DNA of 13,417 nt from a virus (IMGVR_UViG_2526164690_000043:1-13417); one strand, 5' to 3'; numbered from the stretch's first letter, positions 1 through 13,417 are shown. Numbers and translations are program-made. The notes: generated by a model not told the origin, from the sequence alone.

Positions 1-1230
1 ATGAGCAGAGCACTTAACAAACTGAGCGATACACAGCTGAGGAAAATCAACGGCACACCCGCCCAAAAAACAGCCTTTCTTAATGACGGTGGAAACCTGA
101 GCGTCAGGCATTCAACCAGCGGCCTTTTAACCTGGTATTTCACCTACAGGGCCGGAACGGGAAGGGGAGCACGACCGGAACGGATTAAGCTGGGAAATTA
201 TCCTGATCTGAGTCTGAAAGCTGCCAGGGAAAAAGCGGCACAGTGTCGCGCTTGGCTTGCTGAGGGGAAAAATCCACGTCATGAGATGAATTACACCGTA
301 CAGAAAGCGTTAAAGCCCGTAACGGTTGGCGATGCGCTTACCTACTGGCTTGAGTCTTACGTAAAGGAAAACCGCGTGGATTATGCCGCCCTGAAAAAGC
401 GCCTTAATAATCACGTAATACAGCACATTGGTGCTATGCCGCTGGATAAATGCGAGCTACGGCACTGGCTGGCCTGTTTTGACCAGGTGGCAAAGCGAAC
501 GCCTGTTACTGCCGGATTCTTGCTACAGACGTGCAAACAGGCGCTTAAGTTCTGCCGGAGGCGGCGCTATGCAATCAGCAACGTTCTTGATGATATGAGT
601 GTGGCGGACGTTGGGAAAAAACCGGATATAAGCGAGCGTGTCTTAAGCACCAAAGAACTTGGCGAATTATTGCAGGCACTGGACAAAAAAATATTTTCCC
701 CTTACTACGTCGCACTAATCCGCCTCCTGATTGTTTTTGGATGCCGGACGGTAGAACTGAGGTTATCGGAGATCAGCGAGTGGGATTTTACCGAAATGCT
801 CTGGACCGTGCCGAAAGAACACAGCAAAACGAAGGTGGCAATATTCCGGCCCATACCGGAAGCAATACTGCCGTTCGTCACGCAGCTGGTGGAGCAGAAC
901 AGGCACACGGGCTTATTGCTGGGGGAAGTGAAACAGGAAACAAGCGTGTCGCAGTACGGCAGATTAGCGCACAGGAGGCTAAAACACCCTCACTGGTCAC
1001 TGCATGACATCCGGCGCACCTTTACAACGATGCTGAACGATTTAGGCGTGGATCCTCACGTCGTGGAGCAGCTTACAGGTCATCAGATGCCAGGGATGCA
1101 ACGAGTCTATAACCATTCCCGTTATCTGGATGCGAAACGTGACGCGCTGGATATGTGGACGGAGCGGTTAGGGATACTGGCGGGAACACATGAAAACGTA
1201 ACCACATTGCCAATAGCCAGAGAAATATAA
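1..1230 (+). CDS. int: Tyrosine site-specific recombinase (P4-type phage/island integrase)
   Basis: 409-aa ORF starting at base 1. The N-terminal region resembles the arm-binding domain of P4-like integrases; the C-terminal region has the catalytic signature (HDIRRTF ... GHQMPGMQRVYNHSRY) with the R/H-x-x-R and terminal Tyr arrangement of tyrosine recombinases. Confidence 0.93.
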   Translation: MSRALNKLSDTQLRKINGTPAQKTAFLNDGGNLSVRHSTSGLLTWYFTYRAGTGRGARPERIKLGNYPDLSLKAAREKAAQCRAWLAEGKNPRHEMNYTVQKALKPVTVGDALTYWLESYVKENRVDYAALKKRLNNHVIQHIGAMPLDKCELRHWLACFDQVAKRTPVTAGFLLQTCKQALKFCRRRRYAISNVLDDMSVADVGKKPDISERVLSTKELGELLQALDKKIFSPYYVALIRLLIVFGCRTVELRLSEISEWDFTEMLWTVPKEHSKTKVAIFRPIPEAILPFVTQLVEQNRHTGLLLGEVKQETSVSQYGRLAHRRLKHPHWSLHDIRRTFTTMLNDLGVDPHVVEQLTGHQMPGMQRVYNHSRYLDAKRDALDMWTERLGILAGTHENVTTLPIAREI

Positions 1231-1254
1231 TTTTTTTGCGATTTTTCAGGATGC

Positions 1255-1314
1255 GGACAACGTGAAACAACGAGACACAACGACGAACAACAAGGAACAA
1301 AATGGAACAACGGG
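1255..1314. repeat. Six tandem 10-bp repeats (consensus AACAACGNGN), helically phased
   Basis: The core ACAAC (ACAAA in unit 5) recurs at 1257, 1267, 1277, 1287, 1297 and 1307, exactly 10 bp apart, directly downstream of the int stop. Likely a phased protein-binding array; function not determinable from sequence. Confidence 0.8.
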
Positions 1315-1594
1315 TTAAAAATCAGCCATCGTAATAACCATTTGATTTTTATAGGTGTACTGTTTTTTTATACACTGGCGAATCACTCTTAAAAATATGT
1401 AAAAAAGGCGTAAAAGTAAAATTTTATGCCTTTGCATCATAATGAATTAAAAGAGTTTTTATTCTCATTCCCCCTGCTTCTGTAAAACGACCGCCGCCAG
1501 TGTTTGCCATTCCACAAACACCCTGACACAATCCGACACAACCCAACCCAATAATCCACCCAATGACTCTTTAAGAAACAACAAAGGGGGAATT

Positions 1595-1783
1595 GTGTTA
1601 AGCACAGATCGCTTTATACGTGAAAAAGAATGTCAGCAACTTACAGGCCTGAGCCGCTCATGTCGGTACCGCCTGGAAAAAGCCGGACAATTCCCATCAC
1701 GGCGTAAGCTGGGCGGTCGTTCCGTTGGCTGGTCTTTATCCGAAGTTCTGGCATGGAAGGACAGCTGCGAGGCAGTTCACTAA
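1595..1783 (+). CDS. alpA: AlpA-family phage regulatory protein (small helix-turn-helix, excision/transcription regulator)
   Basis: 62-aa ORF with GTG start preceded by GGGGG 5 nt upstream. The sequence CQQLTGLSRSCRYRLEKAGQFPSRRKLGGRSVGWSLSEVLAW matches the AlpA/Xis-like HTH pattern. Position immediately downstream of int is typical. Confidence 0.85.
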   Translation: MLSTDRFIREKECQQLTGLSRSCRYRLEKAGQFPSRRKLGGRSVGWSLSEVLAWKDSCEAVH

Positions 1784-1789
1784 TCAGGC

Positions 1790-11481: not shown

Positions 11482-11774
11482 CAGAAGAACTTATCACCCT
11501 GGAAGAAGTGAAACTCCATTGCCGCATCGATGGCGACGAGGAAGACCAGTTAATCAGCGGATACATTGCCGCATCGCTTGAGGCGTGCCAGATACATATA
11601 GGCAGGCGCTTTGATGACGGGCTGGAGTTCACGCCGGCCATAAAGATTGGCTGCATGATGTTTATCGCTCACCTGTACGAGAATCGCCAGCTGGTAGCGG
11701 ATAACGCAAAAACACGCGTACCCATGACGATAGGCGCACTCTGGACGGCTTACCGTGATGTGGGGGTGTACTGA
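11478..11774 (+). CDS. gp6-like head-tail connector protein
   Basis: 98-aa ORF with an ATGA start overlap. The N-terminal ITLEEVKLHCRIDGDEEDQLISGYIAAS is characteristic of the gp6-like connector / DNA-packaging family. Confidence 0.75.
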   Translation: MTEELITLEEVKLHCRIDGDEEDQLISGYIAASLEACQIHIGRRFDDGLEFTPAIKIGCMMFIAHLYENRQLVADNAKTRVPMTIGALWTAYRDVGVY

Positions 11775-12213
11775 TGCCGTGGCAACCATTAAGACGATGT
11801 ACAGAACCAGGCTGTAACAGGCGCGTTAAGTCCGGCAAGTGTGAGGAGCACAGGCGGGCGGCATGGCGTGCAGAGGATGCCAGACGAGGACACCGCCGCG
11901 CGCGTGGGTACTCCAGACAGTGGGAAAAATACCGCGCCATGTATCTGAGTAAAACCCGTTATGCGTGCGATGCCTTGAGAAGGGGATATATACGCCCGCC
12001 GTGGTGGTGGATCACATTATCCCGATTAATGGCGGTGATGATGTTCTCTTCTGGCCCGAATGGAACCATCAGCCATTGTGCCAGGCGTGTCATAACCAGA
12101 AAACGAAGTGGCTTGATCCGGCAACAAAAAGCAAGCGTGCCGCAGGTGGATTTCGTGAAGAGGAAGAACGGGCCGCTAACCGCAATAACTGGATGTATGA
12201 CGCTGATGAATGA
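11774..12213 (+). CDS. HNH endonuclease (terminase-associated), interrupted by a 1-nt indel at the A run 11951-11954
   Basis: The N-terminal part (MPWQPLRRCTEPGCNRRVKSGKCEEH...RGYSRQWEKYRAMYLSK) is in one frame; the HNH core (NPLCVRCLEKGIYTPAVVVDHIIPINGGDD...WNHQPLCQACHNQKTKW) is in the -1 frame, ending at 12213. AAAA to AAAAA at 11951-11954 joins them. The ORF track's 201-aa read-through from 11774 is an artefact of this shift. Confidence 0.8.
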
Positions 12214-12379
12214 GCGGGAACAAAACCGCCTTATCCGTGGACTTATAAGGCAGCGTGACGCATGGAAGACACAGGAAACAGGGCATAAAGATAAAGCGTC
12301 AGGACGCGCAGAACGCATCACAGCGAAGCGATTAACCGACCGTGACCGCGAGGTTATGGAATGTTTCCGCAATCGCTGA
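12206..12379 (+). CDS. Hypothetical small protein between HNH and the small terminase
   Basis: ATG 12206 overlaps the HNH stop; 57 aa (MNEREQNRLIRGLIRQRDAWKTQETGHKDKASGRAERITAKRLTDRDREVMECFRNR). No recognisable family. Confidence 0.4.
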   Translation: MNEREQNRLIRGLIRQRDAWKTQETGHKDKASGRAERITAKRLTDRDREVMECFRNR

Positions 12380-12501
12380 TGAGGCTGTATGACGGGGTGG
12401 GGGGCGTTTTCAGGACAAACCCGACCCCGCCGGGCACCGAACGCCTCCTCAAATTTTTATGCACGGGAATTTTTTGAAAAATAATCTGGCGAAAAATAAG
12501 C

Positions 12502-12858
12502 ATGGCAAGACCACCGAAAGCCCCCGCCTACCTGAATGACATCGCCGTGAAGCAGTGGCGGGAAAAATCGCGGCAGCTTGCGGAACGGGGAGACCTTACC
12601 CCCGCCGACTGGAGTAATCTGGAACTGTATTGCGTCAATTACTCGATATACCGGAAAGCCGTCGCAGACCTTGCGGCGCGCGGGTTCAGCATTGTTAACA
12701 GTCAGGGTGGCGAGAGCAGAAACCCCGCATTAAGCGCAAAATCCGACGCTGAAAGAGTGATGATAAAAATGGCCTCCTTGCTCGGTTTTGACCCGATAAG
12801 CCGCCGTAAAAATCCACCGGAAACAGAAGAAGAGGACGAGCTTGACCGCCTGGAATAA
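12502..12858 (+). CDS. Terminase small subunit (P27-family-like)
   Basis: 118-aa ORF; WSNLELYCVNYSIYRKAVADLAARGF...NPALSAKSDAERVMIKMASLLGFDPISRRK matches the pattern of P27-type small terminase subunits; acidic C-terminus. Lies directly upstream of the large subunit. Confidence 0.8.
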   Translation: MARPPKAPAYLNDIAVKQWREKSRQLAERGDLTPADWSNLELYCVNYSIYRKAVADLAARGFSIVNSQGGESRNPALSAKSDAERVMIKMASLLGFDPISRRKNPPETEEEDELDRLE

Positions 12859-13417
12859 GTACGCAGAAGACGTAAAAACGGGCAAAATTCCGGCCTGTAA
12901 ACGGCTGAAACAGGCCGTTAAACGGTACTTTTCGGACCTTGAAAGCCCCCTTTACACGTTCGATCGTGAGGTTGTGGAGCGGTTTATTGCCTTTTCCAGG
13001 GTGTGCCCGCACGTAAAAGGGCCGATGCGTGGCAGACCCATTGAGCTGGAGCCGTGGCAGCAGTTCGCCTTTGCGTGCATCCTCGGCTTTAAGGTTAAGG
13101 CCACCGGACGGCGCAAATACACGAGCGCCTTTATCGAAGTGCCGCGCAAAAATGCGAAATCCACGACCGCCGCGATTCTGGCTAACTGGTTTCTGATTAT
13201 GGAGAACGGTCAGCAGGATATCTACACCGCAGCGGTGAGCCGTGACCAGGCGCGGATCGTCTTTGATGATGCGCGTCAGATGTGCCTTTTATCCCGACCG
13301 TTACGCAGGCGGGTGAATATTCAGGCGCATAAGGTGATACACCCGAAAAGCAACAGCCTGTTAAAGCCGCTGGCAGCAAAAGCGGCAACCATCGAGGGAA
13401 CAAACCCCAGCCTTTCC
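12842..13417 (+). CDS. Terminase large subunit, N-terminal part (runs off the window end)
   Basis: Open frame to the window edge. EPWQQFAFACILGFKV...SAFIEVPRKNAKSTTAAILANWFL...YTAAVSRDQARIVFDDA contains the deviant Walker A (PRKNAKST) typical of large terminases. There is no in-frame ATG or GTG after the upstream stop (12797-12799); the only candidate start is TTG 12842, with GAGGA upstream. Confidence 0.8.
   Translation, partial: MTAWNKYAEDVKTGKIPACKRLKQAVKRYFSDLESPLYTFDREVVERFIAFSRVCPHVKGPMRGRPIELEPWQQFAFACILGFKVKATGRRKYTSAFIEVPRKNAKSTTAAILANWFLIMENGQQDIYTAAVSRDQARIVFDDARQMCLLSRPLRRRVNIQAHKVIHPKSNSLLKPLAAKAATIEGTNPSLS

What the first reader, a model, noticed from the sequence alone, without database searches (positions are those of the whole stretch)
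1..13417. Head-only satellite architecture: integrase, AlpA, replicon and a complete HK97 head/packaging module with no tail or lysis genes
A P4-type integrase, AlpA, a replication ATPase with its own iteron origin and an SSB make a mobilisable replicon. They are followed by capsid, protease, portal, head closure, connector, HNH and both terminase subunits, but nothing resembling tail, baseplate, holin or endolysin genes in 13.4 kb. The head genes are also in non-canonical order (capsid, protease, portal, rather than portal, protease, capsid). As I recall, this matches the recently described capsid-forming PICIs, which build their own capsids and borrow only helper-phage tails. It may be an unannotated or divergent member of that class.
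Basis: partly seen in the sequence, partly recalled or inferred. Interest (0 to 1): 0.85.

Follow-up and report, generated by a model that had tools for sequence, protein, structure and literature searches.

The report
Known capsid-forming phage satellite island

Summary
The gene content, gene order and lack of tail or lysis genes are all real. Profile searches confirm integrase, AlpA, a RepA-type helicase, SSB, HK97-type capsid, S78 protease, portal, head closure, head-tail adaptor, HNH, TerS and the first 192 aa of TerL. An iteron array (AGTGGGGA, 7 copies in 200 bp) lies just after the helicase gene.

The capsid is 380/385 identical to PDB 9GYI, the solved capsid of EcCIEDL933, the prototype capsid-forming PICI. 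The DNA from SSB to TerL is 97% identical to EcCIEDL933. In close relatives the island sits at the same roxA|phoQ site, bounded by the same 21-bp direct repeat, and is about 15.3 kb long. Only one small ORF lies between TerL and the right-hand repeat.

The published gene order for proteobacterial cf-PICIs is exactly the order seen here. The one structural difference from the prototype is a swapped replicon cassette: a RepA helicase with its own iterons replaces the DUF927 primase with different iterons.

Two caveats. TerL is cut by the window end. Twelve window-private 1-nt indels break the protease, portal and HNH reading frames. No other genome shares them, so they are probably sequence errors.

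Verdict: interpretation supported, already known, low interest.

The parts
1..1230 (+). Tyrosine integrase of the P4/CP4-57 type (409 aa). The attL core lies 27-47 bp upstream, outside the window.
   Evidence: Pfam Arm-DNA-bind_3 9.5e-19 and Phage_integrase 5.4e-17. 97.8% identical to the EcCIEDL933 integrase. The 21-bp att repeat was found in relatives.
1595..1783 (+). AlpA regulator (62 aa), the helper-responsive switch of Gram-negative PICIs.
   Evidence: Pfam Phage_AlpA 3e-18. 93.5% identical to EcCIEDL933 AlpA. An alpA mutation abolishes induction and transfer of EcCIEDL933 (paper).
2312..2721 (-). Two small leftward genes: a 57-aa hypothetical (2312-2485) and a YlcI/YnfO-family gene (2543-2721). 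The second is frameshifted in the window by the T deletion at 2639. A strong terminator-like hairpin lies at 2112-2085.
   Evidence: RefSeq annotation of the 99.7% identical locus. PHROG 21027 and 949, both of unknown function. Indel. Hairpin.
2912..3112 (+). Icd-like small protein (66 aa).
   Evidence: RefSeq name in L001. PHROG 6196, 9.5e-45. No Pfam hit.
3109..4360 (+). Five small overlapping ORFs of unknown function: 3109-3339, 3329-3553, 3546-3911, 3904-4125 and 4127-4360.
   Evidence: PHROG families of unknown function only. No hydrophobic segment typical of holins.
4366..4665 (+). DUF4222 protein, conserved just upstream of the replication gene.
   Evidence: Pfam DUF4222 2.1e-23. 77.8% identical to the EcCIEDL933 counterpart.
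4662..6059 (+). RepA-family (AAA_25) replicative helicase/initiator, 465 aa. It replaces the 710-aa DUF927 primase-helicase of EcCIEDL933.
   Evidence: Pfam AAA_25 7.8e-43. PHROG 2850, and helicase/primase families over aa 114-383. The exact sequence is found in 1769 blocks of public assemblies, always in this island context. The EcCIEDL933 replication gene is DUF927.
6058..6270 (.). Replication origin: 7 exact AGTGGGGA iterons plus degenerate and inverted copies, in two clusters around an A+T-rich centre.
   Evidence: 8 matches in the window against 0.34 expected; 0 of 200 shuffles reach 8. EcCIEDL933 has a different iteron (TAACCCGCA) at the same position and no AGTGGGGA, so initiator and iterons changed together.
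6261..6814 (+). Two small ORFs of unknown function (83 aa and 101 aa).
   Evidence: PHROG 1231 and 27268, both of unknown function.
6824..7234 (+). Single-strand DNA-binding protein.
   Evidence: Pfam SSB 6.5e-16. 97.1% identical to the EcCIEDL933 SSB.
7247..7519 (+). PerC-family regulator, followed by a terminator-like hairpin at 7526-7543.
   Evidence: Pfam PerC 2.6e-43. Hairpin.
7645..7986 (+). Small ORF that is 74 aa in relatives. In the window its end is altered and extended by the indel pair at 7861/7895.
   Evidence: PHROG 1957, unknown function.
8161..9318 (+). HK97-fold major capsid protein with an N-terminal delta domain. The SxGxxAD maturation motif is at 93-99. A hairpin plus T-run lies at 9328-9349.
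   Evidence: Pfam Phage_capsid 1.1e-60. 380/385 identical to PDB 9GYI, which is the EcCIEDL933 T=4 capsid. D257, K290, D295, E319, R345 and the 227-248 loop are all present. Hairpin.
9358..9930 (+). HK97-family prohead serine protease (190 aa in relatives). In the window the start region is broken by a deletion at 9364 and an insertion at 9397, with a stop at 9373.
   Evidence: Pfam Peptidase_S78 6.2e-47 on 9376-9930. Indels and codon walk.
9932..11146 (+). Portal protein (403 aa in relatives). In the window the insertion at 10956 shifts the frame, with a stop at 11008 giving 358 aa. The deletion at 11067 restores the frame too late.
   Evidence: Pfam Phage_portal 2.9e-78, covering profile positions 1-286 of 321..
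11143..11481 (+). Head closure / head completion protein. This is one of the two genes the cf-PICI papers call 'adaptor' and 'connector'; which of those two names it carries was not checked here.
   Evidence: Pfam Phage_HCP 6.4e-24. PHROG 25, head closure Hc1. 93.8% identical to the EcCIEDL933 protein.
11478..11774 (+). gp6-like head-tail adaptor/connector.
   Evidence: Pfam Phage_connect_1 1.9e-11. PHROG 40, adaptor Ad1. 99% identical to the EcCIEDL933 protein.
11774..12213 (+). HNH endonuclease (146 aa in relatives). In the window it is frameshifted at 11950, so the catalytic motif lies in another frame (11965-12213).
   Evidence: Pfam HNH 4.2e-08 on 11965-12213, and none on 11774-11950..
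12197..12379 (+). 60-aa ORF, 100% identical to its EcCIEDL933 counterpart. By position it is probably the paper's 'gene 1792', whose loss severely reduces transfer.
   Evidence: PHROG 3173. Paper. The gene-number equivalence is inferred from gene order.
12380..12501 (.). Putative cos region (G-rich run, then an A+T-rich stretch) between the HNH-side genes and terS.
   Evidence: Inferred only, from the HNH - cos - terS - terL synteny of HK97-type packaging. Sequence. No differences from L001 in this stretch.
12502..12858 (+). Small terminase, P27 family.
   Evidence: Pfam Terminase_4 1.3e-23. 99.2% identical to the EcCIEDL933 TerS.
12842..13417 (+). Large terminase, first 192 of 553 aa. It runs off the window end.
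   Evidence: Pfam TerL_ATPase 1.6e-14. The full-length relative has TerL_ATPase plus TerL_nuclease.

Best explanation
The window holds about 88% of a capsid-forming phage-inducible chromosomal island (cf-PICI). It runs from the integrase start codon into terL. The element is a mosaic sibling of the prototype EcCIEDL933 and is integrated between roxA and phoQ in E. coli.

The mechanism below is shown experimentally for the prototype and inferred here from 94-100% protein identity:
1. A helper phage of the HK106/HK446 type switches on alpA.
2. The island excises through Int at the 21-bp att core.
3. It replicates from its own origin. In this variant a RepA-type hexameric helicase/initiator acts on AGTGGGGA iterons, with the island's own SSB.
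4. The right-hand operon makes small T=4 HK97-fold procapsids from capsid, S78 protease and portal.
5. TerS, TerL and HNH cut and package island DNA, probably at a cos site just upstream of terS.
6. The head closure and adaptor proteins finish a tail-less head.
7. That head then joins tails made by a helper phage.

Lysis and tails are supplied entirely by the helper.

The indels that break protease, portal and HNH in this particular sequence are most likely sequence errors. If they are real, this copy cannot transfer.
For: - Identity of every module was confirmed by Pfam and PHROG.
- The capsid is 380/385 identical to PDB 9GYI, the deposited EcCIEDL933 capsid.
- Window 6813-13417 is 97.2% identical, and int-alpA 88.7% identical, to the EDL933 island.
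- The chromosomal site and the 21-bp direct repeat CGGTGTAGTTAATGGTGTAGT are the same on both sides in EDL933 and in the 99.7% identical locus, giving about 15.3 kb.
- No tail or lysis genes lie between TerL and attR or inside the window.
- Published experiments on EcCIEDL933 show that alpA and every packaging gene are needed for transfer, that helper tail genes are needed, and that small capsids come from the island. The capsid is T=4 and 47.5 nm.
- The iteron array is statistically real and co-varies with the initiator gene.
Against: - As written, the window does not encode intact protease, portal or HNH. Each of these is essential in the prototype.
- TerL, the last ORF and both att sites lie outside the window, so the boundaries are known only from relatives.
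- No experiment exists for the RepA-type variant itself.
- The cos position and iteron binding by RepA are inferred.
Confidence: 0.93

Rival explanations
1. The island is a cf-PICI by descent, but this copy is decaying and immobile. On this reading the frameshifts in protease, portal and HNH are genuine, and the island persists only as a chromosomal passenger, perhaps kept for PerC, the Icd-like gene or other cargo.
For: Twelve 1-nt indels relative to every relative hit three genes that are each essential for transfer of the prototype.
Against: - All 12 indels are private to the window. None of about 350 complete E. coli genomes carrying this module shares the HNH, portal or protease indel.
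- The frameshifted products are absent from a collection of 153 billion gene positions, whereas the window's RepA sequence is found in 1769 blocks.
- There are 12 private indels against 22 private substitutions, and insertions and deletions balance (6 each). Six of the indels form three nearby compensating pairs, half of the indels sit in homopolymer runs, and there is a TA/AT swap at 8967-8968. This pattern fits base-calling or assembly error, not natural decay.
Confidence: 0.12
2. It is the remnant of an ordinary HK97-like prophage that lost its tail and lysis genes by deletion.
For: The head and packaging genes are phage-derived. The capsid also matches HK97-family capsids such as RcGTA in the PDB (E = 1e-44).
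Against: - It is a precisely bounded 15.3-kb unit with att repeats, and 146 complete genomes hold at least 80% of the window.
- Its left half is of the PICI type: int, alpA, own replicon.
- Gene order differs from that of phages.
- No phage record matches more than 11% of it.
- The 97% identical prototype is a functional satellite.
Confidence: 0.03
3. It is a P4-like satellite, which remodels helper capsids rather than making its own.
For: P4-type integrase domains and an Icd-like gene. Phage satellite families do exchange core genes (paper).
Against: It encodes its own capsid, protease, portal and terminase. No Sid-, Psu- or Delta-type hit appeared in any Pfam or PHROG scan.
Confidence: 0.01

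Closest known systems
EcCIEDL933, the prototype cf-PICI of E. coli O157:H7 EDL933 (Alqurainy et al., bioRxiv 10.1101/2022.09.08.507074; capsid structure PDB 9GYI, bioRxiv 10.1101/2025.02.11.637232)
   Same: - Same roxA|phoQ insertion site and 21-bp att repeat.
- Same gene order.
- Integrase 97.8% identical, AlpA 93.5%, SSB 97%, capsid 98.7%, adaptor 99%, TerS 99%, 60-aa ORF 100%.
- DNA 97.2% identical over window 6813-13417.
   Different: - The replication cassette is replaced. The window has a 465-aa RepA/AAA_25 helicase with AGTGGGGA iterons. EcCIEDL933 has a 710-aa DUF927 primase-helicase with TAACCCGCA iterons.
- The accessory genes between alpA and DUF4222 differ.
- The head closure protein is only 93.8% identical and PerC 87.8%.
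- The window copy carries frame-breaking indels.
Other proteobacterial cf-PICIs (e.g. KpCIDSM30104, EcCIGN02175)
   Same: Same class definition and module order. Their adaptor and connector proteins set tail compatibility.
   Different: These are reported as much more distant from EcCIEDL933 in adaptor and connector (35-63% identity). The window stays within 94-99% of EcCIEDL933, so it should use the same HK106-type tails (inference).
Classical E. coli PICIs (EcCICFT073, EcCIED1a)
   Same: The int-alpA-replication left half, helper-induced alpA control, and frequent PerC-like cargo.
   Different: Classical PICIs have no capsid, portal, adaptor, connector or TerL of their own. They redirect helper capsids and terminase instead.
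Phage HK97 and HK97-like cos phages with HNH-dependent terminases
   Same: HK97-fold capsid with a cleaved delta domain, S78 protease, portal, gp6-like adaptor, head closure protein, and HNH + TerS + TerL packaging.
   Different: - No tail, lysis or lysogeny-repressor modules.
- Capsid-protease-portal and closure-adaptor are in the reverse of the phage order.
- T=4 rather than T=7 capsid, and no covalent crosslink, in the prototype.
- Low sequence similarity to any phage record.

Membership tests
cf-PICI (capsid-forming PICI) | Size about 10-18 kb, bounded by att repeats. | tested here: met
   The window alone is 13.4 kb and lacks both ends. In the 99.7% identical locus and in EDL933, the 21-bp repeats lie 15.3-15.4 kb apart. 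Criterion quoted.
cf-PICI (capsid-forming PICI) | Integrase plus regulation module (AlpA in Proteobacteria) plus own replication module. | tested here: met
   Pfam hits for integrase, AlpA and the AAA_25 helicase. Iteron origin.
cf-PICI (capsid-forming PICI) | [quoted passage not shown] | tested here: met
   All eight were identified by Pfam and PHROG in exactly that order. Caveats: TerL is cut by the window end, and protease, portal and HNH carry private frameshifts in this sequence.
cf-PICI (capsid-forming PICI) | No lytic genes and no complete tail module. | tested here: met
   No tail or lysis family in any scan. No holin-like hydrophobic protein, and no unassigned stretch over 528 bp. In relatives only a 93-aa ORF and non-coding DNA lie between TerL and attR.
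cf-PICI (capsid-forming PICI) | Helper-phage induction, island-made small capsids, exclusive self-packaging, dependence on helper tails only. | not testable with these tools
   Shown experimentally for EcCIEDL933. For the window it is inferred from 94-100% identity of the packaging proteins.
Classical PICI | Lacks own portal, head-tail adaptor/connector and TerL (these are 'forbidden' components in the SatelliteFinder PICI model). | tested here: not met
   Portal, Phage_HCP, Phage_connect_1 and TerL are all present. Model rule quoted.
Intact HK97-like prophage | Tail, lysis and immunity modules next to the head module. | tested here: not met
   Absent from the window and from the rest of the element in relatives. 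Best phage-record match covers 11% of the window.
P4-like satellite | Sid/Psu/Delta capsid-remodelling and transactivation genes, and use of helper capsid protein. | tested here: not met
   No such family appeared in the Pfam or PHROG scans, and the island has its own capsid gene. Only the integrase type and the Icd-like gene resemble P4.

The most novel reading that the evidence does not exclude
The frame-breaking indels are real, and this is a naturally inactivated cf-PICI caught early in decay, with protease, portal and HNH all hit while the replicon and regulators stay intact. Alternatively, the RepA-plus-iteron cassette, which lacks the primase domain of the prototype's DUF927 protein, changes how the island depends on host or helper replication functions. 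Neither reading is excluded, but neither is supported beyond the bare sequence.
Probability: 0.1. Interest if true: 0.2.

Novelty: already known. Interest (0 to 1): 0.1.

Why it matters
The finding shows that a cf-PICI can be recognised from raw sequence alone, but it adds nothing new to biology. The class, its prototype, its capsid structure and its genomic distribution are all published, and this element is a near-twin of the prototype at the same chromosomal site.

Two minor points are useful. First, it is a clean example of modular replicon exchange, with initiator and iterons swapped together, between otherwise 97% identical satellites. Second, it is a warning that this particular sequence carries probable indel errors that would make automatic annotation call three essential genes as pseudogenes.

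Tried and rejected
- Exact-sequence look-ups of the frameshifted HNH fusion (201 aa) and the truncated portal (358 aa) in public assemblies found nothing. The source genome could therefore not be identified, and no second copy of the indels was found.
- An Rfam scan of the whole window at E <= 0.1, and of the non-coding right end of EcCIEDL933 at E <= 1, found nothing.
- The sigma-70 promoter scan gave fewer sites than shuffled sequence (9 against 12.6), so no promoter is claimed.
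- The 300-aa + strand ORF at 1836-2738 was considered as a gene and rejected. It has only a sub-threshold Bro-N hit (E = 0.039, 15 bits against a cut-off of 25.6), its C-terminal two thirds look non-protein-like, and RefSeq places two small genes on the opposite strand.
- The readings as a degraded prophage and as a P4-like satellite were considered and rejected (see rival explanations).
- I did not run the large homology, structure-prediction or fold searches. A solved structure of a 98.7% identical capsid, together with Pfam hits well above threshold, made them unnecessary.

Full report
**What is in the window**

The + strand carries an almost unbroken series of genes. Pfam confirms the following:
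- a tyrosine integrase with the Arm-DNA-bind_3 N-terminal domain (1-1230)
- AlpA (1595-1783)
- DUF4222 (4366-4665)
- an AAA_25/RepA-type ATPase (4662-6059)
- SSB (6824-7234)
- a PerC-family regulator (7247-7519)
- an HK97-type major capsid protein (8161-9318)
- an S78 prohead protease (about 9358-9930)
- a portal (from 9932)
- a head completion protein (11143-11481)
- a gp6-like connector (11478-11774)
- an HNH nuclease
- a P27-type small terminase (12502-12858)
- the ATPase domain of a large terminase that runs off the end of the window (12842-13417)

PHROGs agrees: major head protein, head closure Hc1, adaptor Ad1 and small terminase. It places all remaining small ORFs in families of unknown function or among regulators, with none in tail or lysis categories. 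No protein has a holin-like hydrophobic segment. The largest stretch without an assigned gene is 528 bp, far too small for a tail module.

**The origin**

Directly after the helicase stop codon, 6058-6270 holds two clusters of AGTGGGGA repeats around an A+T-rich centre. The octamer occurs 8 times in the window against 0.34 expected, and no shuffle reaches 8. Seven of the copies lie in this 200-bp stretch.

**What it is**

The window matches 1903 of 5426 complete E. coli genomes in part, and 146 records over at least 80% of its length. The best matches are 99.7% identical, in O103, O111 and other Shiga-toxin-type strains. No phage record covers more than 11%.

In the 99.7% identical locus the element lies between roxA and phoQ. 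After terL come one 93-aa ORF and then non-coding DNA up to phoQ. Six further assemblies show the same layout.

The capsid protein is 380/385 identical to PDB chain 9GYI_B. A 2025 preprint names that entry as the deposited cryo-EM model of the EcCIEDL933 capsid.

I then read the EDL933 chromosome. EcCIEDL933 sits at the same roxA|phoQ site with the same gene series. A 21-bp direct repeat, CGGTGTAGTTAATGGTGTAGT, lies 27-47 bp upstream of the integrase start and again about 100 bp from phoQ. This holds in both EDL933 and the 99.7% relative, and gives an element of 15.3-15.4 kb. The papers give its size as 15.4 kb and 15.5 kb.

Compared with EcCIEDL933, the window DNA is 88.7% identical over int-alpA and 97.2% identical over 6813-13417. 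It is unrelated across most of the middle. Packaging proteins are 94-100% identical. The capsid keeps the SxGxxAD maturation motif at 93-99, the residues shown by mutagenesis to be needed (D257, K290, D295, E319, R345) and the 227-248 loop.

**Comparison with the published definition**

The cf-PICI papers define the class by three criteria:
- a size of 10-18 kb
[quoted passage not shown] They also state that proteobacterial cf-PICIs have a conserved order, capsid-protease-portal-head connectors followed by hnh-terS-terL. Every sequence-level criterion is met. The behavioural criteria cannot be tested here: helper induction through alpA, island-made small capsids, and dependence on helper tails only. 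They have been shown for the 97% identical prototype.

**How it most likely works**

The steps below are shown for the prototype and inferred here.
1. A helper phage of the HK106/HK446 kind activates alpA.
2. Int excises the island at the att core.
3. The island replicates from its own origin.
4. The right-hand operon builds T=4 HK97-fold heads, which the S78 protease matures.
5. TerS, TerL and HNH package island DNA.
6. The head closure and adaptor proteins complete a tail-less head, which joins helper-made tails.
7. Lysis is the helper's.

The cos site is probably in the 122-bp gap between the 60-aa ORF and terS (12380-12501). This follows the HNH - cos - terS - terL arrangement of HK97-type phages and is an inference only. 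The adaptor is 99% and the head closure protein 93.8% identical to those of EcCIEDL933. The papers show that these two proteins set tail compatibility, so I expect the same HK106-type tail specificity.

**What differs from the prototype**

The replication cassette differs. EcCIEDL933 has a 710-aa DUF927 primase-helicase followed by TAACCCGCA/TGCGGGTTA iterons. The window has a 465-aa RepA/AAA_25 helicase followed by AGTGGGGA iterons, and EcCIEDL933 has no copy of that octamer. Initiator and iterons have been exchanged together, which is independent support for calling 6058-6270 the origin. The small genes between alpA and DUF4222 also differ. Such mosaicism of the left half is already described for PICIs and cf-PICIs.

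**A caveat about this particular sequence**

Against the closest relative the window has 52 differing positions, 12 of them 1-nt indels. Their effects are as follows:
- They place a stop in the protease start region (deletion at 9364, insertion at 9397). No start codon is left before residue 71, which is downstream of the conserved EHDH stretch.
- They truncate the portal at 358 of 403 aa (insertion at 10956; the deletion at 11067 restores the frame only after a stop).
- They frameshift HNH at 11950, so that its catalytic motif lies in another frame.

Each of these genes is essential for transfer of the prototype.

All 12 indels are private to the window in a comparison with seven relatives, alongside only 22 private substitutions. 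None of about 350 complete E. coli genomes that carry this module shares the HNH, portal or protease indel. The frameshifted products are absent from the large gene collection, while the window's RepA sequence is found in 1769 blocks.

Several features point to base-calling or assembly error rather than natural decay:
- Six deletions are balanced by six insertions.
- Six of the indels form three nearby compensating pairs.
- Half of the indels lie in homopolymer runs.
- There is a TA/AT swap at 8967-8968.

I put about 0.85-0.9 on error. If the indels are real, this copy is immobile.

**Verdict**

The interpretation as a cf-PICI is supported. The element is not divergent or unrecognised: it is a close sibling of the type member of a published, structurally characterised and bioinformatically catalogued family. 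That catalogue lists 969 cfPICI, found in about 13% of Enterobacteriaceae genomes. Novelty: already known. Interest: low.

Noticed in passing
window 2639, 6191, 7861, 7895, 9364, 9397, 9940-9967, 10956, 11067, 11950; also 8967-8968: Twelve 1-nt indels (6 deletions, 6 insertions) and a TA/AT swap, all private to the window. They break or alter the YlcI-like gene, the 74-aa ORF, protease, portal and HNH. The pattern looks like sequence error (homopolymers, compensating pairs), but this cannot be proven without reads.
   Followed up: yes
window 4662-6270 versus L003 4139-6640: The replicon cassette differs between otherwise 97% identical islands. The window has a RepA/AAA_25 helicase with AGTGGGGA iterons. 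EcCIEDL933 has a DUF927 primase-helicase with TAACCCGCA iterons in the same position.
   Followed up: yes
L003 14845-15282 (EcCIEDL933, outside the window, between the last ORF and attR): Five to six copies of a roughly 48-nt unit (TAACYNGYTGAT..TTTCG, a short hairpin, then GGCG) lie in about 750 bp of non-coding DNA. There is no Rfam match. They could be integrase arm-type, AlpA or packaging-protein binding sites. Function unknown.
   Followed up: partly
window 1836-2738 (+) and 2312-2721 (-): The long + strand ORF is probably spurious, with only a sub-threshold Bro-N hit over its first 90 aa. In relatives one extra T at 2639 fuses it to the Icd-like ORF, giving a 425-aa call in some assemblies. 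RefSeq instead annotates two small leftward genes, which end at a strong hairpin terminator at 2112-2085.
   Followed up: partly
window 9328-9349, 7526-7543 and 7880-7895: Terminator-like hairpins with T-runs lie right after the capsid gene, after perC and after the 74-aa ORF. The one after the capsid gene could act as an attenuator that sets the capsid-to-protease/portal ratio.
   Followed up: no
window 7247-7519: A PerC-family regulator is carried by an island found mainly in LEE-positive Shiga-toxin E. coli serotypes (O103, O111, O157). The literature reports that the EcCIEDL933 PerC-like protein did not affect LEE1 fusions, while another PICI's homologue represses LEE. This allele is 87.8% identical to that of EcCIEDL933.
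   Followed up: partly
window 11143-11774 and 8161-11146: The head genes are not merely a circular permutation of the phage order. Capsid-protease-portal and closure-adaptor are each in the reverse of the HK97 order while staying on the same strand.
   Followed up: partly
L001 1-6749 and L002 1-35087: Lambdoid prophages with tail-fibre genes and T3SS effector cargo (NleG, EspW, EspK, NleL) sit just beyond potAB-pepT-roxA, 5-12 kb to the left of the island. They are separate elements, but they could mislead an automated 'tail gene nearby' filter.
   Followed up: no
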